The notes below the pieces were generated by a model. The model was not told where the DNA came from and ran no database searches. It worked only from the letters and a program-made list of their open reading frames with translations. DNA of 64,000 nt from a virus (Duplodnaviria > Caudoviricetes): the IMG/VR virus record IMGVR_UViG_3300010429_000387, positions 96,001-160,000 of that record. One strand, given 5' to 3'. Position numbers and translations under genes: made by a program. How positions within the stretch are numbered: position 1 is the stretch's first letter; every line of letters starts with the position of its first letter. Below are positions 7,067 through 22,364 of this stretch, one piece after another.

Positions 7067-8037
7067 GCAACGGAGTCAACTACATATCCTACTCTGGGTA
7101 CAAGCTCTACATCCAGTGCCCCTTTGCGTACTGGAATAGGTACGTCAACAAGACTACCCTTGCAGATGCGGAGAACGGGCTTGGGACCCTCTACGGGTCA
7201 ACCGTTGGCCTCGTGTTCGAGGCGTTCTATCGGGATCGGATCTGGAAACGAGAGGATTACCTTGAGGCCCTTCAGGGCTTGGTTGAACCCTACCTGAAGA
7301 AAGCGATCAAGGACCAAGAGAGGCAGGGTCGAATCATCGACTGGTCTGATGAGGAGGCCACCAAGACCTATAAGAACCAGGGAGAGCTGGTAGCCGACAT
7401 CCGGGATTCAATCCCAAGGGGTGTTCAAACCATTCGGCAGAACAAGCTGATGGGGCCTTTCATGGAGGCCGAGATGAAGCTGGATTGCCGCTTCGGTGGG
7501 TACACCATTGGAGGGCGTGCCGACTTCGTGGTTCAGCGGACTCAACCTCATGGTGACCTGGTCATCCTTGATGGGAAGGGATCCAAGCATCGGGCCAAGT
7601 ACGTTGACGGCCATGCGTTGAAAGAGGGGGCCGCTATCGAGGGCGTTCAGCTCAAGTGGTACGCCTTCCTGTACCGTGAGCGCAAGAAGCGGACCCCGGA
7701 TGCCCTTGGGTACATCTTCTGGAAGTTCGGGGGCGAGCAGGCCATGGAGTGGGTCCCCTTCAAGGCCAAGGACCTCGATGACCTGAAGGATGAGGTACTG
7801 GCAACCCTGACTAGGATCGATACTTCGGTGTCAAGGCTCTATAGCCTATCGGGTAAGCCGCAAGCCTGTGCGGACTTGCGTGAGGAGCTGTTCCCTGCTC
7901 AACCGGGGGACGGATGCCGTCTGTGTTCCTACGTGTCTGTTTGCGAGGATGGTCAGAAGAAGACCAAATCGTTCAAGAGGGCTCGCCTGGAACTCCCCGA
8001 AGGTGTAAATGAGCTGACACTCGGCCTGGACGATTGA
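7063..8037 (+). CDS. PD-(D/E)XK nuclease (RecB/AddB/Cas4-like) with a four-Cys cluster
   Basis: SYS..YIQCP, GRADFV, ILDGKG, QLKWYA, CRLCSYVSVC. Confidence 0.85.
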   Translation: MSNGVNYISYSGYKLYIQCPFAYWNRYVNKTTLADAENGLGTLYGSTVGLVFEAFYRDRIWKREDYLEALQGLVEPYLKKAIKDQERQGRIIDWSDEEATKTYKNQGELVADIRDSIPRGVQTIRQNKLMGPFMEAEMKLDCRFGGYTIGGRADFVVQRTQPHGDLVILDGKGSKHRAKYVDGHALKEGAAIEGVQLKWYAFLYRERKKRTPDALGYIFWKFGGEQAMEWVPFKAKDLDDLKDEVLATLTRIDTSVSRLYSLSGKPQACADLREELFPAQPGDGCRLCSYVSVCEDGQKKTKSFKRARLELPEGVNELTLGLDD

Positions 8038-8048
8038 GGTAGACCTAC

Positions 8049-8330
8049 ATGACCCTGATGACCCCTGACAAACTTCATGAGAGAATGCAGAACCTTTCAA
8101 CTCGCCATGCGAAAGTCCTTCGCAGAAAGGCGGAGTTGGGTGGTGAGCTGAAGTCTAAGAAGGAAGAGCTGGCCTCTTTGGTCAAGGAGATCCAGGCGGC
8201 AGGGTACAACCCCAAGACCCTCGTTGAGGACCGGAACAAGGCCCAAGAGGAGTTGGAGACGCTTCTCGACACGTTCGAGACCAACCTGGTCGAAGCGGAG
8301 ACGATCCTCTCCGAGTTCGATAAAAAGTGA
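8049..8330 (+). CDS. Small coiled-coil protein
   Basis: 93 aa with heptad pattern; GAGG RBS. Confidence 0.75.
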   Translation: MTLMTPDKLHERMQNLSTRHAKVLRRKAELGGELKSKKEELASLVKEIQAAGYNPKTLVEDRNKAQEELETLLDTFETNLVEAETILSEFDKK

Positions 8331-8342
8331 GAGGAAACAGAG

Positions 8343-9602
8343 ATGAAGATTGAATTTAGCCTTCCGGACCTCTTGAAGGCGCTTGAGGTCGTTTCCATCG
8401 TCACCCCTCGTCCGGTGACGGCCAGTGGAGCAGCAGGGTACCTGTTCGTTGTCCGGGGTCAGGAGTGCTTCCTGTACTCCCGTGATGAACTCTGTGTCGC
8501 CCGAGCCAGCTTCCCTCTGTCCGAGTCGTCTGAGGATGGGCAGTTCGTCTACCCGGCTGAGTCCATCGACGCTCTCAAGTACCTGGATGACGACTCGTGT
8601 ACCATCGAGGCATCCAGCGTAGACGAGCGATTCACTGTTCGATACCAGACCGCTTCTGGGGTTGAGGCAGAGCGAAGCTCTTTCGACCCTCAACTCCTTT
8701 CGACCTTCGATGAGGACCTGGAGGCAGCAGCAGCCTCGTCCGTCGAGTTCCGTTCCGGAGTGCTTCGAGAGGCTATCAACCTTGCCAAGCCCTTCATCGG
8801 GAAGGTCGGGGACTCCAAGGTCGGGGAGCACTTCAAGGGGCTCCAGATCATGGATGCCACCAGGGTGGATAAGGACAAGGGTATCGACTACTCCAAGGGT
8901 GATGGGTACCTATTCGTCTCGGATGGGACCCGCACCTTCTTCTTCCAGTGCGATGACTTCAAGGGAAAGAGCCTGGAGATACACGCTCAGTTCCTTGGTC
9001 TATTCGTGAGCTTCCTCAGCAAGTGCAAGGAGAAGGTGGTCATCCGCAAGGGCTCTCACCTCATCTTTGCCATGAGCGAGTCGGGTCAGGTTCTTGGGTG
9101 GCCCCTCCACACAAAGCTCCACGACAAGTTCGTCTACTACACTCTCAAGACGGACAACAAGCACGTCTTCCAGGTGAACCGGGCTCGCTTCGTCAACTCT
9201 CTTCAGCACGCTAGGATGGAGCTGCCCGCCAAGCAGAACAAGGTCAAGCTCAACTTCAGTCAAGAACGTAAGAGTATCTGGATCGGGATCGCAGAGGGTT
9301 CCTCCAAGGCCAAGGGCATCCCAGTTGAGGTTAAGGTCATCTCGGATGCTGACCCATCGGAAGTCACAGACTTCTCGCTTGGGATCAACCTCGACTTCTT
9401 GATCGAGCTGGTAAACTCAGTGAAGGGGCATACCGTGGAGTTCCGATGCGGTATCTTCCCAGCGAGTGAGACCCGTAAGCGTGACATGGGCCTCTTCCGG
9501 ACGATTGACGACTTCCGTCTCGACCCGTCAGGCAAGGTAACTCCGGAATCAGAGGGGTCTTTCCAATGCAAGGTGACTCGATTCATGCCCTCAAAGGACT
9601 GA
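8343..9602 (+). CDS. Putative sliding clamp (DNA polymerase III beta/DnaN-like)
   Basis: N-terminus MKIEFSLPDLLKALEVV, FVSDGTR and GINLDFLIELV resemble DnaN. A DnaX-like loader is encoded nearby. Confidence 0.65.
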   Translation: MKIEFSLPDLLKALEVVSIVTPRPVTASGAAGYLFVVRGQECFLYSRDELCVARASFPLSESSEDGQFVYPAESIDALKYLDDDSCTIEASSVDERFTVRYQTASGVEAERSSFDPQLLSTFDEDLEAAAASSVEFRSGVLREAINLAKPFIGKVGDSKVGEHFKGLQIMDATRVDKDKGIDYSKGDGYLFVSDGTRTFFFQCDDFKGKSLEIHAQFLGLFVSFLSKCKEKVVIRKGSHLIFAMSESGQVLGWPLHTKLHDKFVYYTLKTDNKHVFQVNRARFVNSLQHARMELPAKQNKVKLNFSQERKSIWIGIAEGSSKAKGIPVEVKVISDADPSEVTDFSLGINLDFLIELVNSVKGHTVEFRCGIFPASETRKRDMGLFRTIDDFRLDPSGKVTPESEGSFQCKVTRFMPSKD

Positions 9603-10261
9603 CCCGACGCCAGCGAGTCCGGAACCTTCAGGACCAGGTGACGACGGTCAAGGCTATCCGGGACCAGCTAGCTGAGGACCTGGCGGGTAAGGAGAGGGAG
9701 ATTGAGGCCCTTGCCGCCCGCCAGGAGGTCCTTTCCAAGGTTTCAGAGCTGTACCGTGTGCTCATGGACCGGATGGTCATGGGGCAGGTCAAGGTCATCG
9801 AACGGGTGGTGACCGAGGGTCTCAGGACGATCTTCTTCGACCAGGACCTCAGCTTCAAAGCGGAGCTGTCCTCGAAGTACAACCGGGTGTCTGCTGACTT
9901 CTTCATCTGCCAAGGGGACCCGGAGAACGGTGGCATCAAGGGGTCCCCCCTCGACTCGTTCGGGGGTGGCCCATCGAGCATCACCAGCCTGATTCTTCGG
10001 ATCCTCACCCTCCTTCGGCTCAAGCGTCGGAAGTTGCTGCTTCTCGATGAGACCTTGGCAGCGGTGTCAGATGACTACATCGAGACCACCGGTCAGTTCC
10101 TCAAGAAGCTGTCTGAAACGACCGACCTACCGATTCTCATGGTGACGCACAAGCCAGCTTTCCTTGACCACTCGGCTACTGCCTACCAGGGGGACTCCAG
10201 GGTCTCTGCCACCACTGGGAAGAGCCACTTCATGGTCAAGAAGCTACGAGGTGCCGTATGA
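9566..10261 (+). CDS. Rad50/SbcC-like ATPase, C-terminal half
   Basis: Short coil, signature-like DSFGGG, Walker B LLLLDE and H-switch MVTH. No Walker A. Confidence 0.82.
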   Translation: MQGDSIHALKGLTRRQRVRNLQDQVTTVKAIRDQLAEDLAGKEREIEALAARQEVLSKVSELYRVLMDRMVMGQVKVIERVVTEGLRTIFFDQDLSFKAELSSKYNRVSADFFICQGDPENGGIKGSPLDSFGGGPSSITSLILRILTLLRLKRRKLLLLDETLAAVSDDYIETTGQFLKKLSETTDLPILMVTHKPAFLDHSATAYQGDSRVSATTGKSHFMVKKLRGAV

Positions 10262-10785
10262 GGACGGGAGCAGAGATCAGGTCACGGGTTCGGGAGTTGG
10301 TCTCCCAAGAACTTGACCGAAGAATCCAGGAAGCCTCCGAGCGCCTTCCCCACCGATGTACCCACAACTACAAGCATCCCCTCGACACTCGAAAGCATGT
10401 GGAGGGGGAACGGAACGAAGGGTACAACCGAATCACCCTGGAGGATGGGAGCCCAGTTCCTCAACGTATTGGGCTTTGCCTCCTTGGGTCTGAGAATCCA
10501 GAGGAGTGGGGCGGGACCATTTGTGATGAGCCCATCGACGCCAAGAAGTGCCCCTACTTCACCCCGGCCAAGAGCAAAGAAGACCTGATCCCTGAGCTGG
10601 AGGAGAACCTTCGGGATGCCTCCTGGGTTGAGGAGCATCTACCAGAGGTCCACGCTCTTATCTGGGTGCTCGGGGAGGTCACGCTTCGGGTCCCCTGGTG
10701 GAGAAAGCTCCTCTTCCGGTTCAAGCTCATTCGTACTGAGCCGGTTCTCCCCCCTATCGACCCATCTAAGCTGCTGGCCCCATGA
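10258..10785 (+). CDS. Hypothetical four-Cys protein
   Basis: Coupled to both neighbours by ATGA overlaps; four Cys; PWWRKLLF near the C-terminus. Confidence 0.7.
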   Translation: MRTGAEIRSRVRELVSQELDRRIQEASERLPHRCTHNYKHPLDTRKHVEGERNEGYNRITLEDGSPVPQRIGLCLLGSENPEEWGGTICDEPIDAKKCPYFTPAKSKEDLIPELEENLRDASWVEEHLPEVHALIWVLGEVTLRVPWWRKLLFRFKLIRTEPVLPPIDPSKLLAP

Positions 10786-11366
10786 ACTTCTCGATCCTCT
10801 CCTACTTGCTCACCACTGAGCGCTACCGCCAGAGAGCTGCTAGTGGGGGAGGCTTCTCGGTTCCTGTTATGTCGGAGCGAGAGGTACCACCCACTGCGCA
10901 ACCTCTGTTGGTGACCAACGCCAGGGGAGGGTTCTCCCCTACAGTGCGGAACAGCGAGGGTTACGCTAGGTTTGGATTTTCCCCTGTCCCACTTGGGGAC
11001 GAGCCAAGGTTGTTCCTAGCTCTTCTTGATGCTCTCTGGGATCTCTCAGTAGCTTCCAACTGGGAAAACCGGTTCAACACGGTATCGGATGCCTTGTCTC
11101 ACATGCGGGCCTCTTCGTTTCAACCGAAGAGCTTGGTAATCTCAGAAGACCTTGTTGCCTCCTTCTCCAAGGACCTGGGTGGTGTAAGCGTAGGTGAGTT
11201 GGAGGGGGTTCGGGTTCTCTCAGCGAAGCTGCCACTTGGGTCTGCACTTCTTGTCACTGACCCTGCCTCGTTCGGTGTCTACACAAGAGTGGGGGACCAT
11301 CTTGGTCTTCAGCTCTTCAACGTGCGCCAAACAGCATCGGTGATAAGAACGGATGGCCTGGCTTGA
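10782..11366 (+). CDS. Hypothetical protein resembling the C-terminal part of the major capsid protein
   Basis: Aligns by eye to 37118..37990 (see findings). Confidence 0.55.
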   Translation: MNFSILSYLLTTERYRQRAASGGGFSVPVMSEREVPPTAQPLLVTNARGGFSPTVRNSEGYARFGFSPVPLGDEPRLFLALLDALWDLSVASNWENRFNTVSDALSHMRASSFQPKSLVISEDLVASFSKDLGGVSVGELEGVRVLSAKLPLGSALLVTDPASFGVYTRVGDHLGLQLFNVRQTASVIRTDGLA

Positions 11367-12057
11367 TGATTTCACCTTCTACTCGCATGATAACCTGGAT
11401 GAACGGGTCCGGGAGTCTTTGTGGGGTCGTGGTGTCTCAGAGGAGCAGATAGATGCTTTCCGGCTGGGTTACGTTGACGGAGTGCTCCCCTCACAGATCG
11501 AGTTCCCAGACGAGTTCCGGGAGTGGTCCCATCGGGGCCAGAAGCTAGCCGACTCCTACGTCCTCCCGCTCACCAATCCCCTGGGCGAGATTCTGGGGGT
11601 CCAGTTTCGGTCTGTGGAACGAGGTAACCGAGGGTACCTCGACTTCTTCTTGACCAGGTCGGAGCCCGTGCTCCTAGGTCTGGCTCAGGCCATGCCCTAC
11701 ATCTGGGATACCGGAACCATCTGCATCGTTGAGGGTGGTTTCGACTTGTTCCCCGTACAGCGGGTGTTCCCCTTCACAGTACCTACACTCACCTCCAAGG
11801 TGAACGAGGTTCTACTGCGTTGGCTACATCGACTTGTTCAGCGGGTGGTTCTGTTCTACGATGCCGACTCTGCTGGTAGAAGTGCTAGCTTCGACTTCAT
11901 CAAGGAGCACGGTTCCGGGTTCGATGTTCGGCCGTTGGAGTACCCTAGAGGTGTAAGACTACCGAACGGAAAGCCAGTGAAGGACCCGGCTGACCTTTGG
12001 GAAGCCTGGGGGGACGACAAGCTCGCTGAATACCTCAAGGCCCAGATTTCGGAGTGA
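11353..12057 (+). CDS. DnaG-like primase catalytic (TOPRIM) domain
   Basis: FRLGY, LPLTNPLGEILGVQFR, IVEGGFD, LFYDADSAG, KDPAD. No N-terminal zinc-binding domain. Confidence 0.85.
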   Translation: MAWLDDFTFYSHDNLDERVRESLWGRGVSEEQIDAFRLGYVDGVLPSQIEFPDEFREWSHRGQKLADSYVLPLTNPLGEILGVQFRSVERGNRGYLDFFLTRSEPVLLGLAQAMPYIWDTGTICIVEGGFDLFPVQRVFPFTVPTLTSKVNEVLLRWLHRLVQRVVLFYDADSAGRSASFDFIKEHGSGFDVRPLEYPRGVRLPNGKPVKDPADLWEAWGDDKLAEYLKAQISE

Positions 12058-12059
12058 CC

Positions 12060-12551
12060 ATGCCGCAAACCTACGAGAACGCTGAAGCAGTCGAGACCAT
12101 CGCCAACCAGCTCATCGGTACCTATCACCCTGAGTTGGCTACCGCCAAGTTCCGCTACCTTTTCAAGGAGAAGGCTGGGAAGAAGGGCGGGAAAGCTGTC
12201 CTGGGTACCGTCAAGAAGATGAGTGATCTCATGGTCTTCCTCATCGACGCCCAGTTCTTGATGGAGATCCCTCTCGATGTCTGGAACGAGATGGATGCCC
12301 AGAAGCGAACGGCCCTGGTGGACCACCTCCTGGAGCGCTGCACCGGGGAAGAGGATGAGCAGACGGCCGAGATGAAGTGGAGCACTCGGGAGCCAGACGT
12401 TCACGAGTTCAGCTCAATCCTTCGTCGTCACGGGGCCTGGACAGAGGACCTCTCCGGGTTCGTCTCCGTGGCTCAGACGGTTGACTTGAGCTTCATGACG
12501 GCTGCTGAGGGTGAGGAGGATTCCGAAGTCCAGACAGCGGTCAATGCCTAA
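12060..12551 (+). CDS. Putative phage metallopeptidase-like protein with degenerate HExxH
   Basis: W..MD..KRTALVDHLLERC and PDVHEFSSILRRHGAW fit the phage metallopeptidase pattern. Confidence 0.6.
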   Translation: MPQTYENAEAVETIANQLIGTYHPELATAKFRYLFKEKAGKKGGKAVLGTVKKMSDLMVFLIDAQFLMEIPLDVWNEMDAQKRTALVDHLLERCTGEEDEQTAEMKWSTREPDVHEFSSILRRHGAWTEDLSGFVSVAQTVDLSFMTAAEGEEDSEVQTAVNA

Positions 12552-12563
12552 GGGGGTTCTGCT

Positions 12564-14120
12564 GTGTGGGATACCAAACATCGACCCCTGACTTTTGCCG
12601 ATGTTTTGGGTCAGAGCGGAACCGTTCAAGTCCTGAAAGCTAGGCTCAAGAACGGTACCGCCCTCGACACCAACTACATCTTCAGTGGAGGTTCGGGCCA
12701 AGGCAAGACAACCCTGGCCCGGATCTTTGCTCGGGCACTGCTTTGTCAACAGCTTGACAAGAACAACCCGGAACCGTGCAACAAGTGCGACAACTGCACC
12801 TCGATCCTCAACGACAGCTCAAGGGCCTTCGTTGAGCAGGATGCCGCCAGTCAGGGGAACATCGAGCAGGTTCGCAAGATCGTAGAGGACCTCCCATTCG
12901 CTGTGTTCGGGGCCTCCAAGCGCATTTACCTGTTCGATGAGTGCCACCGGATGAGCAAGGACGCCCAAGATGTCCTCCTCAAGCCGTTGGAGGAGCGGAA
13001 GCTCCTTGGGATGTTCTGCACAACGGAGCCAGAGAAGGTTCGGGGTGCCATCCGGTCCAGGTGCGAGGAGTATCATATCCGGAAGGTCACACGGGATGAT
13101 GTTCTTGCCCGGATGAAGATGATCCTTGCGGCTGAGGGAGTCGAGCATGATGATGAGGCGGTCCTGATCGTCATCGACTTCTGTGGGGGTCATGTTCGAG
13201 ACGTTGTGAACCGTCTGGAGATGATCTCCCAGATGGGGGCGATCACGGTTGAGAGTGTCCGGGAATACCTGAACCTCTCAGTTGTTTCCACCTACTACGA
13301 AGTTCTTCTTCGGATCCCAGGTGACACCAAGGGCGCCCTAGCCCTAATCGACAAGGCTTGCGAGAGGGTAACCCCGGAGGAGATCGCTTCCGGCCTAGCT
13401 GAATCAGCTATGAACTCCTTTCGCCTAGCCAACGGGATGAATGCGGACTTCACCTTCGCTGACAAGGCCCTGAGTCAGCAGGTGAGTAACCTGTATGGCC
13501 CCCAACTCATCAGGGTTGCTGAGTATTTCCTCAGGTCAAGGTATGTGACCCAGGTTGGTCTCATCTGTGACCTGGTGTCCCTGGCTCAGCAGTTGGGCTC
13601 TGGTCAGCCTATTGCGGCCCCCAGGGCGGCCCCCAGGGCGTCTTTCCAACCGCTACCGACCCAACCCCCGACTCAGGTGGCTCAAGCTCCTGTGGTGGTC
13701 TATGCCTCTTCTGAGCCCCTAGTCCAACCTGAGCCTGTGGTTGAGTCACCGGTCCAACCTGTGGTTGATCCACCAGCCCACTCCTTGGGGGTAACCCCAG
13801 CTCAGGCTGAAACGGTAGCAGACCCACCACCCTCGCCCTCAGCGGCTTCAACCCCCCCTGTCCTTCCCCTTGAGAGTGTCAAGTTGGATGAGTCCGGGCT
13901 TCGTTCGGATGGGGTTGGGAATCTTGGATCATCTGATAAGCGGGCTCAAACTGAGCTAGATGTCCATGTAGTTCCATTGGAACTACCAGGGTCCCAGAAG
14001 AAGTCGGTAGAGATCAACTTCAACAATCGCTCAAAGGACGGTCGAGACATTCTCCCACCATCTGTGTGGCGCCGAGAGTTCCAAGAGCTTCTGAGAAGAG
14101 GAGCCTCCGGTGCCAACTGA
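12564..14120 (+). CDS. dnaX: Clamp loader, DNA polymerase III gamma/tau-like
   Basis: KHRPLTFADVLGQ, GGSGQGKTT, C...PCNKCDNC zinc module, LFDECH, IRSRC; Pro-rich tail. Confidence 0.9.
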   Translation: MWDTKHRPLTFADVLGQSGTVQVLKARLKNGTALDTNYIFSGGSGQGKTTLARIFARALLCQQLDKNNPEPCNKCDNCTSILNDSSRAFVEQDAASQGNIEQVRKIVEDLPFAVFGASKRIYLFDECHRMSKDAQDVLLKPLEERKLLGMFCTTEPEKVRGAIRSRCEEYHIRKVTRDDVLARMKMILAAEGVEHDDEAVLIVIDFCGGHVRDVVNRLEMISQMGAITVESVREYLNLSVVSTYYEVLLRIPGDTKGALALIDKACERVTPEEIASGLAESAMNSFRLANGMNADFTFADKALSQQVSNLYGPQLIRVAEYFLRSRYVTQVGLICDLVSLAQQLGSGQPIAAPRAAPRASFQPLPTQPPTQVAQAPVVVYASSEPLVQPEPVVESPVQPVVDPPAHSLGVTPAQAETVADPPPSPSAASTPPVLPLESVKLDESGLRSDGVGNLGSSDKRAQTELDVHVVPLELPGSQKKSVEINFNNRSKDGRDILPPSVWRREFQELLRRGASGAN

Positions 14121-15975
14121 GTGGGTCGTACTAGAGCTAACATCTCAAGGGGAGGATGAAGATCCTGAAGTCCTGAAGAAAGCCTTTGCTCGTATCGTCA
14201 AAGGAGGGGACGTTTTCATCCCCGCTTCAATCTCGATTGTAGGGGACTCCAGGGTAGTACACAAGCTGATTGACAACTACGTCTTCGTGAAGCGTACTTT
14301 CCCGGACTCCTTCTTCTTGAAATTGGAGGGGTCCAAGTACGTTGCGTGCGTTCTGACTGTAGCTCACAGCTCTAGTGGGACCCGTAAGATAGCCTGTGTA
14401 TCTGAGTCAGACATCGAGAAGATGCGTCGCCAGATCCAGGTCGAGACTGAGCAGGGTATCGAGGTTGGTGACGAGGTAGAGGTCATGAGCGGCCCCTACA
14501 AGGGGATCACAGGTAAGGTCATTGAGGAGATCCCTGAGAACGATAGCGTTCAAGTTTACATCAGTCTCCGCTCAAAGCAGGCCCTAGTCACACTACCTCG
14601 TAGCTTCATGAGGTTTGTGGCGAAAGACAAGGGTGACCAACCTTCATTCTCCCCGTTCCTCAACAAGATCACAAGGATTCGGGAGTGGGTCACACGGGTT
14701 CGTCCGTTCTTCCTTTGGTCCCCGAGTCCGATTCGGCTGGTGCAGTCGAAGTATACAGGGGTGCTTCAACTGGAAGAGTGGATGCACAGAGGGAACTCTT
14801 TGGTCAAGCTGTTGGTTGACCCCCCAGCACCAACATCCTTGGTGGGGGTTGGTGGTGTGTCAATCGCAGATAGATTTGAGCATACCCAGAGGATGAGCCG
14901 CTTCATAGAGCGTGCTCCGGCCTTGTTCCACCTCTCACGGATGCCCGTCCATGACATCACACCCCTGGAGTCGAAGTACATCGAGGTCCAGTGGTTTCAG
15001 GACGTTCTACACAGGACTGCCGCTCTTCAGGAGTCGATTGAAGGGATCGAAAGGTCCATCCCAGATTGGAAGCCCCCGATGGTTCAGAACCTCATCTTCG
15101 ACGGTCACAACCTGGCGTACAGGGTTGTGAATGCTCTCCGAGCAATCCCAAACCAACTTACGGACAAGGACGGGAACCCAACCTCCTTGATCTTTGGCTT
15201 CCTGAAGAGCCTGGCTTCGTTCAAGAAGCGTTTTGACAGAGCTAACATCTATGTTGTCTGGGACGGCTCAAAACAACGCAGGGCCTCTCTGTTCCCAGAG
15301 TACAAGGCACAACGCCCTGAATCTGGGAACGGTGGTGAGGTCAGTGACCAGATGTCCAAGCTCCGGAAGCTACTCCCGCTGTTGGGCGTTACCCAGGCGT
15401 ACAACCCGGATGAAGAGACAGATGACCTTATTGCTTGCTTGGTCAAGGGTCGCCTCAAGGGACAGCACAACGTCATTGTTTCCACTGACCGGGACTTCCT
15501 ACAGTTGGTGACATACACCGACCTATTGTTGGTTCCGAAGGTGGGCTCAAGGCAGGAAATCCTTTACGACCCTGACCGAGTTGTGGAAGAGTACGGGGTC
15601 GCCCCAAGCAAGATGGTCCACCTCCGAGCACTTGTAGGAGACACATCGGACAACTTCCCTGGGGTTCCTAGGGTACCAAGAAAGGTTCTAGCAGCCTTGT
15701 TGAACACGCATGGATCTCTCACGGGGCTATTTGCCTCTAGTCTGGCTGGTATCACCTCAGCACAGTACGAGAAGATTCGTGCGTTCGAGCAACAGGCACG
15801 TCTGAACTTCCAGTTAATGACACTCCGAGACGACGTTGAGTGTCCCATCACGGAGGCAGCTCCAGATCAGGAGGCGGCCTCTTCGGCTATGTTGGCTTCG
15901 GAGATCCAACCAGAGTCCATCGTAGGGGTTTTCTTTGCGAACAGCCCCAGTCAGGGTTTCGCTAAGTCAAATTGA
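14110..15975 (+). CDS. Fusion of a NusG-like (NGN+KOW) domain and a 5'-3' exonuclease/flap endonuclease
   Basis: N-part: WVVLEL..., VFIP, NYVFV, GDEVEVMSGPYKGITGKV (KOW). C-part: FDGHNLAYR, VVWDG, PEYKAQR, ETDDLIA, STDRDFLQL, GDTSDNFPGV. Confidence 0.85.
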   Translation: MPTEWVVLELTSQGEDEDPEVLKKAFARIVKGGDVFIPASISIVGDSRVVHKLIDNYVFVKRTFPDSFFLKLEGSKYVACVLTVAHSSSGTRKIACVSESDIEKMRRQIQVETEQGIEVGDEVEVMSGPYKGITGKVIEEIPENDSVQVYISLRSKQALVTLPRSFMRFVAKDKGDQPSFSPFLNKITRIREWVTRVRPFFLWSPSPIRLVQSKYTGVLQLEEWMHRGNSLVKLLVDPPAPTSLVGVGGVSIADRFEHTQRMSRFIERAPALFHLSRMPVHDITPLESKYIEVQWFQDVLHRTAALQESIEGIERSIPDWKPPMVQNLIFDGHNLAYRVVNALRAIPNQLTDKDGNPTSLIFGFLKSLASFKKRFDRANIYVVWDGSKQRRASLFPEYKAQRPESGNGGEVSDQMSKLRKLLPLLGVTQAYNPDEETDDLIACLVKGRLKGQHNVIVSTDRDFLQLVTYTDLLLVPKVGSRQEILYDPDRVVEEYGVAPSKMVHLRALVGDTSDNFPGVPRVPRKVLAALLNTHGSLTGLFASSLAGITSAQYEKIRAFEQQARLNFQLMTLRDDVECPITEAAPDQEAASSAMLASEIQPESIVGVFFANSPSQGFAKSN

Positions 15976-15988
15976 GGGAGGAGTCGTT

Positions 15989-16621
15989 ATGAGCGGAGGC
16001 TATGTCATTTCGGTTGACCCAGCAGAGCTGGCAACCAGGTTTGCTACACAGGAACCGCTCTTCGATGAGATTGACGAGGATCCTGAGGGTCCCAATGTCG
16101 AGCCTCTTCTATCCACCCTCAACTTCGAGAACCAGATCAAGCCACTCCTCGACCGTATCCCCGAGAGAGAGGCTGACCTGATTCAGCTCTACTACATCCA
16201 GAAAAAGCGCCAGGCCGACATTGCCGAGATTTTCGGTGTGACCCAGGCAGCCATAAGCTACCGTCTGGACCGTGGCCTTCAACGCATCCGCTTCTTGCTT
16301 TCCATCCCCCAGGTGACCGAGGAGGACATGCGCCGGGACCTGCCAGGTGTACCCTTCAAGGTGATCGACGTGGATATCCTGGTAGGTATGTGGCAAACGA
16401 CCTGCCAGAGTGAGGTGGCCTCTCGGCTGGGCCTCACCCAAGGTCGGGTCCGTCACCGCTTCTTTGGGGCTGTCAAGCAGCTCGAAAGGAAGGCCAAGGA
16501 GGATGAGCGGTTCGACCCATATCATCGGGTCTTCTCTGCTATCGCCAGCAAGCGGTTCAACATTCTCCGAGAGGTCAAGCTCCCCCAGTGGAGCAACCGT
16601 GGTGGGGATGGGTGCTTCTGA
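15989..16621 (+). CDS. Protein with two tandem sigma70 region-4-like HTH domains
   Basis: IPEREADLIQLYY..KRQADIAEIFGVTQAAISYRL and QSEVASRLGLTQGRVRHRF. GGAGG RBS before ATG 15989. Confidence 0.75.
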   Translation: MSGGYVISVDPAELATRFATQEPLFDEIDEDPEGPNVEPLLSTLNFENQIKPLLDRIPEREADLIQLYYIQKKRQADIAEIFGVTQAAISYRLDRGLQRIRFLLSIPQVTEEDMRRDLPGVPFKVIDVDILVGMWQTTCQSEVASRLGLTQGRVRHRFFGAVKQLERKAKEDERFDPYHRVFSAIASKRFNILREVKLPQWSNRGGDGCF

Positions 16622-16688
16622 GGGGTCTGTCCGCACCTCCTGAGTAGTGCGAGCATTTACTTGTATGCCCGGTGGTTAGAGGACCACC

Positions 16689-17594
16689 GTGCCGCTCGTA
16701 CAGAACCTCAAATACCACGACTACCAGTTCGAGTACGCTGTCCCAGCGGGGAAGTGGCGTTGGACTACTCGTCTCGACGTGTCTCAGTCGAGCCCAACCT
16801 ACTCGGTGCGGGATATCGTCTCACCCTACGGACTGCTTCGGGACTCGATTCCTATCCCTGGGGTAGTGATCCAGGCGATGGGGGAGAGCATCGTGGAGTT
16901 GCGATCCAACTTCACCCCAAGCATTCTTGTTGGGCCTCCGACTCAACTCGTTTTCGATGTGGACGAGGGGCGTGGCTATTCAGTCCCCCAGACCGTCCTT
17001 GTCACGAACGATGGGGTCTATGGGTCCATTCTCGGGGCTAGCCTGACCACTTCGGCACCCTTCGTTCGGGTAACCCCCACGACGGTATCGAACCTTGCCA
17101 TCAATGAGAGTGGCGAGTTCACCGTGGAGGTCAACTCGAAGGACCTTCTCGCTGTTGATGGCCCCTACCATGAGACCATCGTCATCCAAGACCCGGCCTC
17201 GGCCAACAGCCCACAGTCGGTGCCAGTTCTGATCAATGTTCGTCCCAAGGCGAGCATTGCCTCGGTGCCTACCGTGTTGGTTTTCAGTGTAGTTCGCCCC
17301 ATTGATGGGGCGTTCTCAACTGTACCTCCCCAGAGCTTCACGATCCAGAACCTTGGTTCCGCTGGATCGGTTCTGGAGTACGATATCCGGGCTCTGACTG
17401 GGCTTTGCTCGAACTGGCTTCGTAGCTGGCTCCCAGCTTCAGGGGTCCTGACCTCAGGGCAGTCTCAAGCCATTCAAGTCACAGTCCAACCCCCGGACAA
17501 CATGCTCCAGGGGTCCTACTCAGAAAAGCTCCGTGTATCCGGGTTCAGCTCGAACGGGTACCTGGACGTTGAAATTCGTCTTGTTATTTCGTGA
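16689..17594 (+). CDS. Putative virion protein with two Ig-like (BACON-like) domains
   Basis: Two beta-rich repeats (PTQLVF..QTVLVTNDG; PTVLVF..QSFTIQNLG..WL..P.SG.L..G.SQ.I.V.V). Confidence 0.55.
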   Translation: MPLVQNLKYHDYQFEYAVPAGKWRWTTRLDVSQSSPTYSVRDIVSPYGLLRDSIPIPGVVIQAMGESIVELRSNFTPSILVGPPTQLVFDVDEGRGYSVPQTVLVTNDGVYGSILGASLTTSAPFVRVTPTTVSNLAINESGEFTVEVNSKDLLAVDGPYHETIVIQDPASANSPQSVPVLINVRPKASIASVPTVLVFSVVRPIDGAFSTVPPQSFTIQNLGSAGSVLEYDIRALTGLCSNWLRSWLPASGVLTSGQSQAIQVTVQPPDNMLQGSYSEKLRVSGFSSNGYLDVEIRLVIS

Positions 17595-17601
17595 GGGCAG
17601 A

Positions 17602-17874
17602 ATGTCAGACCGCAACTTCGATCTGGGTGGTTTTGAGGTCCAGGGGTCCGCTGGGCTGGATGCCTTCTTTGCGAGGGAGCCTGCCATAGTGACCCCCTCC
17701 AAGGGGATGCGTAGAGTGGCATCCCTTCAGGACCTCAACGGATTCGTCCGTCTCTCCAACGACACCCTCATCCACAAGGCCGACAGGGACCTTTGGGCTA
17801 TCCGTCGCCAGGGTGATGGCTCGATGTTCGTTGAACGTATGTTCGATGACAGCGGATCACCCCTCAAGGTTTGA
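17602..17874 (+). CDS. Hypothetical protein
   Basis: GAGG RBS; 90 aa; contains RRVAS. Confidence 0.7.
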   Translation: MSDRNFDLGGFEVQGSAGLDAFFAREPAIVTPSKGMRRVASLQDLNGFVRLSNDTLIHKADRDLWAIRRQGDGSMFVERMFDDSGSPLKV

Positions 17875-17884
17875 AGGAGGCCCC

Positions 17885-19288
17885 GTGAAAGCGAGCCAAA
17901 AGGTCCGAACGGTCATTGCCAGAGAGGAAGGGCTGCCCCTACCGCCCCCACCTCCTGGGTCCGGTGAGGGTGGGTCCCTCAAGCGAGAGATCCCTAAGGG
18001 TCATGAGTTTGACCCCAAGGCGCTCAAGCCTCTTGCTCGGGCTCTGTTCTCTTCATCGGTTGCCCTTGGTCACGCCGTTACGGCCTACAAGGAGTTCGCT
18101 CGAATCAAGTCCAGTTCCATCTCTCCGGATGGGATGCTTGGGGGGAAGGGTTACGTCCTGAAGGTCAAGGATGTTCGGGCCAAGCTCCAGCAGGCATGTG
18201 AGCTTCTCTCGGCCCTCACTGACACTCTTCATGATGAGCTACACGGACCTCACTGGAACGCCAAGCTCTCTGATGTTGGGCAGAATGATGCTGAGGACAT
18301 CACTGAGCTTCTTGATGAGTCCGATGAGGTCCTTGAGGACCCTGAGCGCTTTGGTGACAAAGAGGTCCAGGACATCGAGAAGAAAAACGACGGGAAGGGT
18401 GGGACCCCCAACACCAAGAAGACCGAGGACCAGATCAAGGAGTCCGAGGCCCGTCAGAATGAGACCGAAGCCTCCCGGCTCCCCGATGCTGGTGGGAAAG
18501 AGACCATGGAGGCTGCTCCGGCTGGGAGTCGTGAGCGGTCCAAGCAAGCATCCGACTGGAAGGCCCCTTCTGGGTGGGGTCGCTTCGCCAACTCTTCCGT
18601 CCCAGTGGATACTCTCCCTGGACCTCGTGTGAACCACCTTGAGCGTGGGGAGCAGACCGGCCCAGGGGGCTCCTACAACCGGGATGAGCCTCGGGTCGAG
18701 GATGAGTGGGGCATGGCCGAAGGGGCTCCTCCGAAGACCCTCAACAAGGTCTGGGGAAGCATCGAGGAGTGGGGTGCCTCTGGGCTCCCTGCTGATACCG
18801 AGACCCGTACTGAAGCCAAGGACTTCGGGGTTGGCTATGGAGCCAAGGGTGAGGGAACCGAGGGCTACGGGACCAAGAACCCTGATGGGCGAGGGGTCTG
18901 GGGTCCACAGAGTGACCTTCCCAACGACCCCCAGACTACCACCAAGGACCCAGGGGGCATCCCCTTTGGCGGGGGACCTCAACGGGACTTCTGGGGTGCG
19001 GTAGCTGAGTCGGAACTTCCCTTCGACGGCCCTGACCCTGTTGCACGGTCGGACTACTACGAGGGTGACAAGGGGAACCTCGTCAATGTGAACCCACATG
19101 GCAATCGCCCTGTGGCCCAGTCAGAGATGCCTGGGAATGATGGCGTCAACTACAACTTCGACCGGGACCTTCCCAACACTGGTCAAGTCTACGAACAGCA
19201 GGCAGTTCCCTACGTGAAGCGTGATTGGACAACGCACAACGACCGGAACGACATGCAAGACCTCTACAGGATGGACAAAAATGGCTGA
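17885..19288 (+). CDS. Hypothetical head-region protein with a low-complexity repeated C-half
   Basis: AAGGAGG RBS before GTG 17885; repeated A-x-S-x-[LMV]-P-x-D units. Confidence 0.75.
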   Translation: MKASQKVRTVIAREEGLPLPPPPPGSGEGGSLKREIPKGHEFDPKALKPLARALFSSSVALGHAVTAYKEFARIKSSSISPDGMLGGKGYVLKVKDVRAKLQQACELLSALTDTLHDELHGPHWNAKLSDVGQNDAEDITELLDESDEVLEDPERFGDKEVQDIEKKNDGKGGTPNTKKTEDQIKESEARQNETEASRLPDAGGKETMEAAPAGSRERSKQASDWKAPSGWGRFANSSVPVDTLPGPRVNHLERGEQTGPGGSYNRDEPRVEDEWGMAEGAPPKTLNKVWGSIEEWGASGLPADTETRTEAKDFGVGYGAKGEGTEGYGTKNPDGRGVWGPQSDLPNDPQTTTKDPGGIPFGGGPQRDFWGAVAESELPFDGPDPVARSDYYEGDKGNLVNVNPHGNRPVAQSEMPGNDGVNYNFDRDLPNTGQVYEQQAVPYVKRDWTTHNDRNDMQDLYRMDKNG

Positions 19289-21296
19289 CCTTGGCGATCT
19301 TACCAATTTCATGAAAGAGGGCTCGGTCGCCAACCTCGACTGGCTCGATGTTGATGGGAAGCAGTATCGGGAACTGGATCAGCTCCCGAAGCAGAACCTC
19401 GACATCGCTCCGGACTTGGAACACGTCTGGAGCCATTCGGACAGTCCTCAGACCATCGTCCCCAACAAGGAAGCTGGCCCGAAGACGATGCTGGATGTGG
19501 GTCTTGGCAAGACGGCTTCTGAGGAGGCCATCCGCCGGGTGATCAAGGTCGCCAGGCTGGCTTTGATGCAGTCCACCGACCCAGCCAACTTCAGGCACGC
19601 CCTGACCTCCAGGTTCGATTCCCAGGTCTTGAGCGAAGCCCGTCCAGTCCTTGCTCAGATCCTCCAAGAAAGAGGTCTCCTGGGTCGTTACTACGTGGAG
19701 GCCATTGACTTCCCCAACTGCCACAAGGCGGGGAAGGAGATCGCTACCTTCACCAAGAAGTACGCATCAAGTGCCCAGTTCTTGGTGGCGAAGGACTCCT
19801 GTGCAGGGTGCATCCACAGCTCTGGGAACACTTGTGCGGTCTTCCAGAAGGAGTTGGTCCTGGAGGTCCCCTACACCCCAGCTCTGGCTGAGGCAGTAGA
19901 GCGGAGCCAGTCCGCCCAAGGGAAGCTCATTCAGGCTTCTAGTCTGACCCCCCGTGAGCGCATCAAGGCAGCCCACCTGGCATCCGACGTGAGGGTATCC
20001 GACCGGGTAGAGACCCCGAAGCCGGTGGTCAACCCTGCTCAGTTCATGCGGGCCACGGTCGAGACCCCCAAGGTCCACCTCCCCGTCATGGCCTCCCAGG
20101 CTCAGGCCCTACACGACGCCCAGATGGCCTGGAACCCTGAGGTGGCTTCGGGTAAGACCGCTGCAACCTCTCGGAATGCCGCCGATAAGAAGGCTTTCGA
20201 CATTGTGACCTTCCTCCGACGGGAGATGCTGAAGGGGCATGGGGAGCAGGCGCTTCTCCACTCCCTCAAGCTCTCCTTCTCTCTGGATGACCTTCGAGCG
20301 ACCCGTCATGCCTGGGAGCCAGTCTTCAAGGAGGCCGGGTACTTCGGGACGATCTACTCCACCCAGGAGTCCTTCAACGATTGCCATGAGGGAGCCGACT
20401 TCCTTGCGAAGTTCAACCCCTCGGTGAAGGGGATCGTGGCGGGAGGGAAGTGCTCAAGCTGCATCTACAGCAAGATGTCCCGGTGCATGATGTACGGGAA
20501 GCCCTTGGTTGCCAAGGCTGAGGACCTGTACACCCCCGAGATGGTCAGCACGGTTGTTCGTGAGCACCGTCTGGCAGGGCGTCTGGGGACTGGGGCTGAG
20601 ACCTCCAAGTGGGGAAGCACACCCGTGGAAGCCCTCAAGGTTGTCTATCGGACGGCCTCGAAGGCGGTTCAGGCTCCCCCAGTTCCAATGAGGGCCTACG
20701 TGGAGCAAGCCTTCCGTGGGGCCGACCACGGACACATCACGGCTGGCCTTACCAAGAGAGAGATAGTCAAGACTGCCACTCGGTACCTGAACGAGGGTCT
20801 CTACGGAGAACAGCTCTTCCAGGCGCTTCAGACTCGTTTCGATGTTCGGGACATCCAAGCCTCGACCGAGGAGCTGAAGGTTGCCCTGGCGGAGCAGGGG
20901 CTTCAGGGCATCTTCTTCATCGACCCGGCAGTCTATGATGACTACGCCAGGGGTTGTGATGAGGGTTCTCGGCTTCATCGAGCCCGCATGGTCCCTTACC
21001 TCAAGATGGGTCCGAAGTGCGCCTCCTGTGTCCTTCAGCCCCATCCAGGGTTCTGCTCCAAGTACGCCAAGACCCTGGTCTTGGAGCCCCCCTACACGGA
21101 TAAGGCTGCCCAGCAGCAAGAGATCCTGGCCTCTGGGAAAGCTACCGAGATCAACTTGGCGACCTTGATGGTCAACGACAAGTCCATCGTCGCTGAGTTC
21201 GCCCTGAAGTCTGCCACAGACATCGAACTCAACCCCGAACCCGCCAAGGCTGCCACCATCACGGTGGAGTTGGGTGGAGCGAAGATCGACCTATGA
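19281..21296 (+). CDS. Hypothetical protein with three Cys-rich repeats
   Basis: Three copies of E.G..G..[YF]...C-x(20-26)-CxxC-x(7-8)-C..[FY].K.LV. Confidence 0.8.
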   Translation: MADLGDLTNFMKEGSVANLDWLDVDGKQYRELDQLPKQNLDIAPDLEHVWSHSDSPQTIVPNKEAGPKTMLDVGLGKTASEEAIRRVIKVARLALMQSTDPANFRHALTSRFDSQVLSEARPVLAQILQERGLLGRYYVEAIDFPNCHKAGKEIATFTKKYASSAQFLVAKDSCAGCIHSSGNTCAVFQKELVLEVPYTPALAEAVERSQSAQGKLIQASSLTPRERIKAAHLASDVRVSDRVETPKPVVNPAQFMRATVETPKVHLPVMASQAQALHDAQMAWNPEVASGKTAATSRNAADKKAFDIVTFLRREMLKGHGEQALLHSLKLSFSLDDLRATRHAWEPVFKEAGYFGTIYSTQESFNDCHEGADFLAKFNPSVKGIVAGGKCSSCIYSKMSRCMMYGKPLVAKAEDLYTPEMVSTVVREHRLAGRLGTGAETSKWGSTPVEALKVVYRTASKAVQAPPVPMRAYVEQAFRGADHGHITAGLTKREIVKTATRYLNEGLYGEQLFQALQTRFDVRDIQASTEELKVALAEQGLQGIFFIDPAVYDDYARGCDEGSRLHRARMVPYLKMGPKCASCVLQPHPGFCSKYAKTLVLEPPYTDKAAQQQEILASGKATEINLATLMVNDKSIVAEFALKSATDIELNPEPAKAATITVELGGAKIDL

Positions 21297-21682
21297 GTGA
21301 CGAAGTCCTCATCCTCAAGGTAGCTGCCAGGTACCTTCACGCTGACCAGTCCCCTGGTATGCGCAAGGAGGTCAGGGATCTCGTCAAGCCAATCAACAAG
21401 CCAAAGGGCATCGACAAGGGGATCGTCAAGGAACACGGGCAGCTCATGGAAGACGGGAACGATGACACGGTGGACCCCAACCGCCGGGACATCCGACCCC
21501 AAGACGTGTTCATCCCGAAGCCAGACCAGGTCAGCGTCAGGAACCTAGCCGAGACAGGGAAGGACCTCTCGAAGGCTATCGAGAAGCAGATCCCCAAGGA
21601 CAAGGGCTACGACTCCGTTCGCAACCTCAGCCAGTATCTCATCGAAACTGGCGGTGGTGGTGGTGCTAAGCCCGTCAAGTGA
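21293..21682 (+). CDS. Hypothetical protein with N-terminal KVAARY
   Basis: ATGA overlap with the upstream gene. Confidence 0.75.
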   Translation: MSDEVLILKVAARYLHADQSPGMRKEVRDLVKPINKPKGIDKGIVKEHGQLMEDGNDDTVDPNRRDIRPQDVFIPKPDQVSVRNLAETGKDLSKAIEKQIPKDKGYDSVRNLSQYLIETGGGGGAKPVK

Positions 21683-21689
21683 GGTTGTC

Positions 21690-22364
21690 ATGAGTGACGG
21701 AACACTACCCAATCAAGAATGTGCTGACCTCGAAGACGAGGAGTCAGAGGACTCTGACGAGGGTCAGGAGGTATTCGATGCCTCTCAGAGCGATGAGGAA
21801 AGGGCTGAAGGGATCCTATCGATCCTTCCTGTTCATGACGCCCCGAACACTGGCAAGAATGCCCTGAAGGTCAAGCGTGGTCCAGGTCGCCCCCGGAAGG
21901 TCGAGCGGATGCCGACCACCAGCGACCTCCAGTACCATGCCATCAACTCCAAGAAGAAGCAGGGGTTCATTGCCACCGACCCCCTGGTTCAGGCTATCGA
22001 GCAGAGGGTCGATGCCCCGGCCAACCTTCAGCGTATCAAGTTGGAGATTGCCAAGGAGATCGCATCCCTGCACTTCCAGAGGGTCGAAACAGAGAAGTAT
22101 GGGCGGGACACCTCCCAGATTTCCTCTCGACGGATTGATGCCCTGGAACGACTTGCCAAGATCGAGCTGAAGATCCGTGAGATCGACAAGGACTCGATCA
22201 ACCTTGGCAGCGAGAAGATGCAGAAGATTTTCGTCCTCTGGGTCGAGGTCATGCGAGAGGTTGCTGCTGAGGTTCTGCCTCCCGAGGCAATGGATCTCTT
22301 CTTCAACCGCTTCGCTACTGCGATGGAGGGGTGGGAAGAGAAGGCAGCCAACGTGCTGAGGTAA
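21690..22364 (+). CDS. Putative terminase small subunit with an AT-hook-like motif
   Basis: Directly upstream of TerL; helical; contains KRGPGRPRK. Confidence 0.5.
   Translation: MSDGTLPNQECADLEDEESEDSDEGQEVFDASQSDEERAEGILSILPVHDAPNTGKNALKVKRGPGRPRKVERMPTTSDLQYHAINSKKKQGFIATDPLVQAIEQRVDAPANLQRIKLEIAKEIASLHFQRVETEKYGRDTSQISSRRIDALERLAKIELKIREIDKDSINLGSEKMQKIFVLWVEVMREVAAEVLPPEAMDLFFNRFATAMEGWEEKAANVLR

What the first reader, a model, noticed from the sequence alone, without database searches (positions are those of the whole stretch)
14110..15975. NusG-like transcription factor fused to a 5'-3' flap exonuclease
Seen: one uninterrupted frame with NGN+KOW (about aa 1-170), a ~150-aa helical linker and a PolA-type 5' nuclease from M324 (15079) with its acidic motifs intact; no obvious RBS at 15079. 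It is flanked by the clamp loader and a sigma-4 protein at the junction between replication and structural genes. Known: NusG paralogs (RfaH, LoaP) bind elongating RNA polymerase and aid transcription of long operons; 5' nucleases remove RNA primers and flaps. I do not know of this fusion. Inference: a nuclease tethered to RNA polymerase that couples replication to late transcription, resolves R-loops, or degrades nascent transcripts.
Basis: partly seen in the sequence, partly recalled or inferred. Interest (0 to 1): 0.78.

Follow-up and report, generated by a model that had tools for sequence, protein, structure and literature searches.

The report
Huge-phage NusG fused to flap nuclease
A 407-kb uncultured phage, like more than 150 relatives, joins a copy of the RNA-polymerase-riding factor NusG to its only DNA flap nuclease in one protein, which suggests an undescribed and testable physical link between phage transcription and DNA replication.

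Summary
Window 14110-15975 (+) is one open 621-aa frame. It holds a true NusG module (NGN+KOW, aa 1-172), a family-specific helical tether (aa 182-316) and an intact Pol I-type 5' nuclease (aa 328-581) with a conserved C-terminal tail.

It is not an assembly artefact. A 100%-identical protein lies on six contigs, and 163 relatives in my set (down to 36% identity) keep the same architecture. All 15 IMG/VR loci examined show the synteny clamp loader - NusG-FEN - double sigma-4 protein.

New here:
- More distant relatives carry a stand-alone NusG at the same slot.
- One relative fuses this NusG module to a sigma factor.
- A nested clade of 13 representatives has re-split the gene into overlapping NusG-tether and FEN genes.

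So the fusion arose once and fission is secondary.

The phage has no detectable RNA polymerase, RNase H or second FEN, and its PolA lacks a 5' nuclease.

The best reading is an RNA-polymerase anchor carrying the phage's only primer and flap nuclease. RNA polymerase binding and the nuclease's target are inferred, not shown. I found no paper describing the fusion. This scan has already met the family in at least six other genomes.

The parts
14098..14103 (+). Shine-Dalgarno GAGGAG, 6 nt before the GTG start
   Evidence: Read directly. The start is confirmed by the conserved N-terminus xxEWVVLEL in relatives.
14110..15975 (+). Whole NusG-tether-FEN gene, 621 aa. It overlaps the end of the clamp-loader gene by 11 nt.
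   Evidence: 100% identical protein P0002 lies on 6 contigs. More than 120 full-length relatives were found.
14110..14427 (+). NGN domain (aa 1-106)
   Evidence: Profile match to NusG structures across NGN and KOW. Foldseek top hits are NusG/RfaH/Spt5. The Pfam NGN match alone is sub-threshold.
14455..14625 (+). KOW beta-barrel (aa 116-172)
   Evidence: Pfam KOW above cut-off. Predicted as five strands E121-172. This is the most conserved part of the N-terminal module.
14653..15057 (+). Family-specific helical tether (aa 182-316): four long helices with low-confidence hinges
   Evidence: No Pfam family. W193 is invariant and R302 nearly so. It is unrelated to the C-extensions of outgroup NusG proteins.
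15079..15081 (+). In-frame ATG (M324), 7 codons before the DG motif, at the point where split relatives start their FEN gene. It could be an internal start or a relic of an earlier start.
   Evidence: Met at this position in 85 of 146 fused relatives; none nearby in 53. Only a weak GGAAG lies upstream in the window.
15091..15597 (+). FEN N-terminal PIN-like nuclease domain (aa 328-496)
   Evidence: Pfam PF02739, E 7e-30. Profile match to the Pol I 5' nuclease 6vde at E 3e-48 and Taq at 1.5e-45. Acidic residues are invariant.
15598..15852 (+). FEN H3TH (SAM-fold) DNA-binding domain (aa 497-581)
   Evidence: Pfam PF01367, E 2e-16. GDTSDN motif is conserved.
15853..15972 (+). Conserved C-terminal tail (aa 582-621), consensus L..IQPE.....FF......GF.K. 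Candidate partner-binding motif.
   Evidence: L594 and F608 are nearly invariant. The tail lies beyond the Pfam FEN domains. Its function was not tested.
12564..14120 (+). Clamp-loader gene, the invariant upstream neighbour
   Evidence: Synteny holds in all loci examined.
15989..16621 (+). Sigma region-4 protein (two HTH stretches), the invariant downstream neighbour and the best-conserved gene of the block
   Evidence: 70-84% identity across relatives, and always directly downstream.

Best explanation
The gene encodes a genuine bifunctional protein of a clade of huge phages.

Shown:
- The N-terminal 172 residues are a phage-specific NusG paralogue (NGN+KOW).
- The C-terminal 300 residues are a catalytically intact Pol I-type 5' flap nuclease, and it is the only one in the 407-kb genome.
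- The two are joined by a roughly 140-residue helical tether, predicted to be flexible and specific to this family.
- The NusG gene always sits between the clamp loader and a sigma-4 gene. It occurs alone at that slot in more distant relatives.
- The tether and FEN were added once, and the gene later split again in at least one subclade.

Inferred:
- The NGN domain rides the host RNA polymerase elongation complex. The phage has no detectable RNA polymerase of its own, and the NusG module probably works with the adjacent sigma-4 protein on late genes.
- The tether keeps the nuclease within reach of transcribing polymerase.
- From there the nuclease removes RNA:DNA hybrids, RNA-primed 5' ends and flaps. 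These arise where transcription and replication share the same co-oriented template: R-loops, transcripts used as primers after collisions, and Okazaki primers.
- Free FEN made from the internal ATG may add to this in part of the family.
For: - Open frame and domains.
- NusG homology by profile and by fold.
- FEN homology and invariant acidic residues.
- The fusion is kept down to 36% identity: 163 fused proteins in my set, with about 50 fused among the 72 representatives (50%-identity clusters) at E<=1e-30.
- An identical protein lies on 6 contigs.
- Strict synteny clamp loader - NusG(-FEN) - sigma-4 holds in 15 IMG/VR loci, 3 split loci and 2 stand-alone loci.
- The same NusG module is fused to a sigma-70 r2+r4 protein in P0191, and lies directly after a sigma-4-like gene in P0185.
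- In the own genome there is only one FEN, no RNase HI, a PolA without a 5' nuclease, and no RNA polymerase by Pfam models.
- The full-length model has confident domains and low-confidence hinges at 173-181, 237-249, 274-279 and 318-322, with pTM 0.50. This fits a tether.
- Split relatives keep the tether on the NusG half and overlap the FEN gene. This fits continued co-production.
Against: - No binding to RNA polymerase and no nuclease activity was tested. The host is unknown.
- The Pfam NGN model alone is below its cut-off.
- The gene has been split again at least once, and NusG stands alone in more distant relatives. A covalent link is therefore not essential.
- Met at the domain boundary in 58% of fused relatives allows a free FEN.
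- Fusion of two adjacent co-expressed genes can persist without mechanistic coupling.
Confidence: 0.45

Rival explanations
1. Fusion of convenience. The NusG paralogue acts in transcription and the FEN acts in Okazaki-fragment maturation with the phage PolA and clamp. They share a polypeptide only because adjacent genes of one operon lost a stop codon. The flexible tether lets each work on its own.
For: - Stand-alone NusG lies at the same slot in more distant relatives.
- Fission has recurred.
- An in-frame Met at the old FEN start is kept in 85 of 146 fused relatives.
- The full-length model has low-confidence hinges and pTM 0.50.
Against: - The fusion, with a conserved ~140-aa tether of constant length, has been kept down to 36% identity in over 150 proteins.
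- 53 of 146 fused relatives have no Met at the boundary, so there the nuclease can only exist fused.
- Split forms keep the tether and overlapping reading frames.
- No second FEN or RNase H is available for an untethered role.
Confidence: 0.33
2. The NGN-KOW module no longer binds RNA polymerase. It has been re-used as an adaptor that docks the FEN on a replisome part (clamp, clamp loader, SSB or primase) or on the ribosome.
For: - The gene lies at the end of the replication operon and overlaps the clamp-loader gene.
- The Pfam NGN match is sub-threshold.
- KOW barrels bind many different partners (established for NusG, Spt5 and uL24; uL24 appears among the weak matches).
Against: - Linkage to sigma-type genes is stricter than linkage to the FEN. 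NusG stands beside sigma-4 without any FEN in L106 and L107, and is fused to a sigma factor in P0191.
- The whole NGN+KOW aligns to bona fide NusG chains, including the conserved hydrophobic strand.
Confidence: 0.1
3. Torpedo-like terminator or transcript degrader. The NusG module places the 5' nuclease at the RNA exit so that it degrades nascent RNA and dislodges polymerase. Archaeal Spt5-FttA and eukaryotic Spt5-Xrn2 work this way.
For: [quoted passage not shown]
Against: - The nuclease is closest to the Pol I 5' nuclease. By established knowledge that enzyme acts on 5' flaps and RNA:DNA hybrids, not on free single-stranded RNA.
- It is the phage's only candidate primer-removal enzyme.
- A tether of about 140 residues is not an obvious fit to the RNA exit channel.
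Confidence: 0.07
4. Assembly or sequencing artefact: a missed stop or frameshift has joined two genes.
For: Some relatives have two reading frames.
Against: - An identical 621-aa protein lies on 6 contigs.
- More than 120 independent full-length relatives were found.
- The tether is conserved and predicted to fold.
Confidence: 0.02

Closest known systems
Specialised NusG paralogues (RfaH, LoaP, UpxY, ActX/TaA) and housekeeping NusG/Spt5
   Same: NGN+KOW two-domain core by sequence profile and by fold. The gene is carried by a mobile or foreign element next to the long operons it would serve.
   Different: - It carries a ~140-aa helical tether and a complete enzyme (FEN) after the KOW domain. 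The NusG review searched has no mention of 'fused', 'fusion', 'exonuclease' or 'nuclease'.
- No ops-like recruitment site was identified.
- KOW is predicted as a beta-barrel, not an RfaH-type helical hairpin.
- The profile reaches only 513 proteins in 1.8 billion, so this is a separate, phage-borne branch.
Pol I 5' nuclease domain and stand-alone bacterial or phage FENs (ExoIX/Xni, T5 D15, T4 RNase H)
   Same: PF02739 and PF01367 domains with all acidic metal ligands conserved. Best solved relatives are Pol I 5' nucleases. Like T4 RNase H and T5 FEN, it is encoded apart from the phage polymerase.
   Different: It is fused to a transcription factor rather than to a polymerase or standing alone. 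It also has a conserved extra C-terminal tail.
Nuclease or helicase partners recruited by NusG/Spt5 KOW domains: bacterial Rho, archaeal FttA (PMC11616081), eukaryotic Xrn2/Rat1 (PMC11695829)
   Same: A NusG-family factor brings a nucleic-acid-processing enzyme to the elongation complex.
   Different: In those systems the partner is a separate protein acting on nascent RNA to terminate transcription. Here the partner is covalently attached and is a DNA-flap and RNA:DNA-hybrid nuclease of the replication type.
T4 late transcription (gp45 clamp, gp44/62 loader, gp33, gp55)
   Same: Replication-clamp genes and small sigma-like factors are encoded together and act at the switch to late genes. This parallels the block clamp - clamp loader - NusG-FEN - sigma-4 seen here. 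The T4 mechanism is from established knowledge.
   Different: T4 has no NusG-like protein, and its RNase H is not part of the transcription apparatus. No clamp-binding motif was demonstrated here.

Membership tests
NusG/Spt5 family | N-terminal NGN alpha/beta domain | tested here: met
   A family profile aligns to NusG chains from residue 4 to 165 (2lq8 E 9e-10; 8ehq_G E 2e-6). Foldseek top hits are NusG/RfaH/Spt5. The Pfam NGN model on the single sequence is below its cut-off (13.8 against 22.2 bits), but several relatives pass it.
NusG/Spt5 family | C-terminal KOW beta-barrel with the KOW motif | tested here: met
   Pfam KOW 26.6 bits against a cut-off of 22.3. Five-strand barrel predicted. 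The isolated NusG KOW domain 2mi6 matches with TM 0.78 by target length.
NusG/Spt5 family | Binding of NGN to the clamp helices of RNA polymerase, and an effect on elongation or termination | not testable with these tools
   The host is unknown and no biochemical data exist. Supported only indirectly, by linkage and fusion to sigma-type genes.
RfaH-type specialised paralogues | Autoinhibited helical KOW, and recruitment at an ops-like non-template DNA element | tested here: inconclusive
   AlphaFold predicts only the beta-barrel state, which does not exclude fold switching. No ops-like site was searched for.
FEN / 5'-3' exonuclease family (Pol I 5' nuclease type) | PIN-like N-terminal domain plus H3TH domain | tested here: met
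   PF02739 E 7e-30 and PF01367 E 2e-16, both above cut-off. Profile match to Pol I 6vde at E 3e-48.
FEN / 5'-3' exonuclease family (Pol I 5' nuclease type) | Conserved acidic metal-binding residues | tested here: met
   D331, D385, E436, D438, D460, D462, D511 and D514 are invariant in 30 relatives. The motifs are present in 147-163 of 163 fused proteins.
FEN / 5'-3' exonuclease family (Pol I 5' nuclease type) | Structure-specific 5' nuclease activity | not testable with these tools
   Needs an enzyme assay.
T4-type clamp-coupled late transcription apparatus | Transcription factor carrying a sliding-clamp-binding tail | not tested
   A conserved C-terminal tail exists. No shared tail motif was seen with the sigma-4 protein or other replication proteins, and no clamp docking was run.

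The most novel reading that the evidence does not exclude
The protein is an RNA-polymerase-riding flap nuclease. Anchored by its NusG module on host polymerase that the neighbouring sigma-4 factor has redirected, it clears R-loops and transcript-primed 5' ends. It may also turn transcripts into replication primers. This would mechanically couple late transcription to replication of a 400-kb genome. More generally, it would mean phages use the NusG module as a universal polymerase anchor for interchangeable cargo: FEN, a sigma factor, or unknown domains.
Probability: 0.3. Interest if true: 0.85.

Novelty: new variant of a known kind. Interest (0 to 1): 0.62.

Why it matters
NusG/Spt5 is the only transcription factor conserved in all life. 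It is known to recruit partners non-covalently. I found no description of a natural, widely conserved covalent fusion to a DNA-replication nuclease.

If the N-terminal module rides RNA polymerase, this would be a ready-made case of an enzyme delivered to elongation complexes. It would offer a direct handle on how very large phage genomes handle transcription-replication conflicts, R-loops and primer removal.

The evolutionary series gives natural separation-of-function variants for experiments: stand-alone NusG, then the fusion, then re-split genes, plus a sigma-NusG fusion.

Tried and rejected
- Complex prediction of the N-terminal module (aa 1-323) against the FEN part (aa 324-621), each with 30-row alignments, gave no verdict (score 0.00, controls not run). 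This says nothing either way.
Read support and expression could therefore not be checked, and read laying was not used.
- The first two database calls failed on a preliminary check and were repeated.
- The scan of GTDB representative genomes returned only generic FEN-domain matches (about 35% identity, query residues about 259-620), because the patterns hit ordinary polA genes. Among the 80 loci kept, none matched upstream of about residue 259, so none carried the NusG module. The search was dominated by one pattern.
- Cultured-phage records (INPHARED): 208 FEN-only matches, none covering 80% or more of the query.
- Literature searches for NusG with huge/jumbo phages, or with flap endonuclease and fusion: no paper found.
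- The helical tether was compared with the ~220-aa C-extensions of outgroup NusG proteins and is unrelated (hhalign probability 0.1).
- A look for a C-terminal motif shared between the fusion, the sigma-4 protein and the replication proteins, as in T4 clamp binders, found nothing obvious.
- The promoter and terminator scan of 8000-22000 gave nothing above shuffled expectation.
- The assembly-artefact reading was rejected.
Full report
**Observation.** Window 14110-15975 (+) is one open frame of 621 codons. It starts at GTG 14110 behind a GAGGAG Shine-Dalgarno at 14098-14103 and overlaps the clamp-loader stop by 11 nt. Pfam gives KOW at aa 119-149 (above cut-off), 5_3_exonuc_N at aa 328-496 (E 7e-30) and 5_3_exonuc at aa 497-581 (E 2e-16). 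The NGN model is only sub-threshold on the single sequence. PHROGs gives 'exonuclease' and 'transcription antiterminator'.

**Is the N-terminus really NusG?** Yes.
- A profile of aa 1-180 from 30 relatives (A2) matches solved NusG chains over NGN and KOW together: T. maritima 2lq8 at E 9e-10, 8ehq_G at 2e-6, Aquifex 1m1g at 1e-5 and E. coli 2jvv at 8e-3.
- An AlphaFold model of aa 1-323 (pLDDT 82) returns only NusG, RfaH and Spt5 among its top 29 Foldseek hits, many of them polymerase-bound.
- After KOW come four long helices (aa 182-316) with no Pfam family.
- In the full-length model both end modules are confident (about 85 and 93). The helices are joined by low-confidence hinges and pTM is 0.50. 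This looks like a flexible tether.

**Is the nuclease intact?** Yes. D331, D385, E436, D438, D460, D462, D511 and D514 are invariant in 30 relatives. The motifs are present in 147-163 of 163 fused proteins. The closest solved relatives are Pol I 5' nucleases, 6vde at E 3e-48 and Taq at 1.5e-45. A conserved 40-residue tail follows the H3TH domain.

**Is the fusion real?**
- A 100%-identical protein lies on six contigs.
- More than 120 full-length relatives (36-76% identity, 590-680 aa, 95-100% coverage) have the same architecture.
- With my own domain HMMs, 166 of the 274 proteins gathered have NusG and FEN in one chain; 163 of these entered the tree.
- An exhaustive profile search finds 513 proteins with this NusG module (E<=1e-3) and 72 at E<=1e-30, mostly fused.
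- IMG itself names one '5'-3' exonuclease/transcription antitermination factor NusG'.

**Setting.** The window is bases 96001-160000 of a 407,078-bp virus record with direct terminal repeats.
- Relatives sit on contigs of up to 512 kb.
- None of the 208 cultured-phage records with a match covers 80% of the protein.
- None of the 80 best GTDB loci matches the NusG part.
- In the own genome this is the only FEN. No RNase HI is found.
- PolA (1043 aa) has no 5' nuclease domain.
- No multisubunit or T7-type RNA polymerase is detected. The T7-type search had no positive control.
- A weak sigma region-2 hit exists elsewhere in the genome.
- The phage therefore most likely uses host polymerase, and the fusion carries its only recognisable primer and flap nuclease.

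**Synteny.** The order clamp loader - NusG-tether-FEN - sigma-4 protein - a 300-aa gene holds in all 15 IMG/VR loci. The sigma-4 protein is the best conserved (70-84%), ahead of the NusG module (60-70%), the FEN (52-66%) and the tether (27-38%).

**Evolutionary series (the main addition here).**
1. More distant relatives have a stand-alone 171-173-aa NusG at the same slot, between the clamp loader and sigma-4, with no FEN (L106, L107).
2. One relative, P0191, has sigma-70 regions 2 and 4 fused in front of this NusG module. Its nearest neighbour in the tree, P0185, lies directly after a protein with faint sigma-4 hits.
3. About 22 representatives have NusG plus tether (277-386 aa) without FEN. 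In L101, L102 and L103 a separate FEN gene of 295-310 aa follows. It overlaps by 8-44 nt in the +1 frame, and a GGAG precedes its start in two of the three. L096 looks the same. The L103 arrangement was assembled independently from two data sets (L104), so it is not a sequencing error.
4. In a FastTree of 268 NusG modules the fused forms fill a clade of about 195 rows. One clade of 13 split representatives (support 96) lies inside an 83-row clade (support 98) that also holds the window's protein. Further split singletons are scattered, and stand-alone forms are outside.

The tether and FEN were therefore added once to a NusG already paired with the sigma-4 gene, and fission is secondary. This holds as long as the root lies outside the fused clade; the tree was rooted at the midpoint only. 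Other lineages carry unrelated N- or C-terminal extensions on the same module, which suggests an anchor with exchangeable cargo.

**Internal start.** An in-frame ATG lies 7 codons before the DG motif in the window and in all 14 fused loci examined (L082-L095). The upstream sequence is GGAGGA or GGGAG in three of them but only GGAAG or GGAAC/T in the window and the rest. Across the fused proteins, 85 of 146 have Met there and 53 have none nearby. A free FEN is possible in part of the family. The fused product must be the working form in the rest.

**Mechanism.** The anatomy and the evolutionary linkage are shown. Polymerase binding by NGN, cooperation with the sigma-4 protein, and action of the tethered nuclease on R-loops, transcript-primed ends and flaps near transcription complexes are all inferred. 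The main rival is independent functions on one chain, and it is almost as likely. A replisome-adaptor role and a torpedo-like role are less likely. The complex prediction between the two halves gave no verdict, and read-level checks were unavailable.

**Novelty.** I found no paper that joins NusG with huge or jumbo phages or with a flap nuclease. The NusG review has no mention of fusions or nucleases. The nearest functional parallels are NusG-Rho, archaeal Spt5-FttA and eukaryotic Spt5-Xrn2 (papers listed). In all of these the partner is separate and acts on RNA. This scan has already reported the same family from at least six other genomes with the same reading.

Noticed in passing
L101:4001-6029, L102:4001-5744, L103:4001-6023, L096:7992-10020: In the split relatives the FEN gene is always in the +1 frame relative to the NusG-tether gene and overlaps it by 8-164 nt. 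This may simply be inherited, but a programmed +1 frameshift that still yields some fused protein is not excluded.
   Followed up: partly
L105:3612-5237 (P0191): A 541-aa protein joins sigma-70 regions 2 and 4 to the same phage NusG module (aa 326-492). It was seen on a single contig beside a ResIII/DEAD-type helicase.
   Followed up: partly
P0199, P0202, P0216, P0260 (383-406 aa); P0205, P0233, P0249, P0264: Outgroup phage NusG-like proteins carry other extensions with no Pfam family: a ~220-aa C-terminal domain unrelated to the tether, or N-terminal extensions of 110-175 aa.
   Followed up: partly
window 4679-7066: An SbcD/Mre11-type phosphoesterase with a LAGLIDADG match at aa 536-591, which suggests an intein or homing-endonuclease insertion.
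   Followed up: no
window 24348-25415: A type IB topoisomerase (PF01028, E 5e-27) is encoded among the genes downstream of the sigma-4 gene, ahead of the capsid gene.
   Followed up: no
window 12054-12551 and L101-L103, L106, L107: A PhageMetallopep-family gene sits just upstream of the clamp-loader gene in the window, L101-L103, L106 and L107, and directly follows the Toprim/DnaG-like primase gene where that gene carries a Pfam match (window, L102, L103, L106). It is as syntenic as the NusG gene.
   Followed up: no
G000:C1:263427-266558 (L100:151-3282): The phage PolA is 1043 aa. About 450 N-terminal residues have no Pfam match, and there is no 5' nuclease domain.
   Followed up: partly
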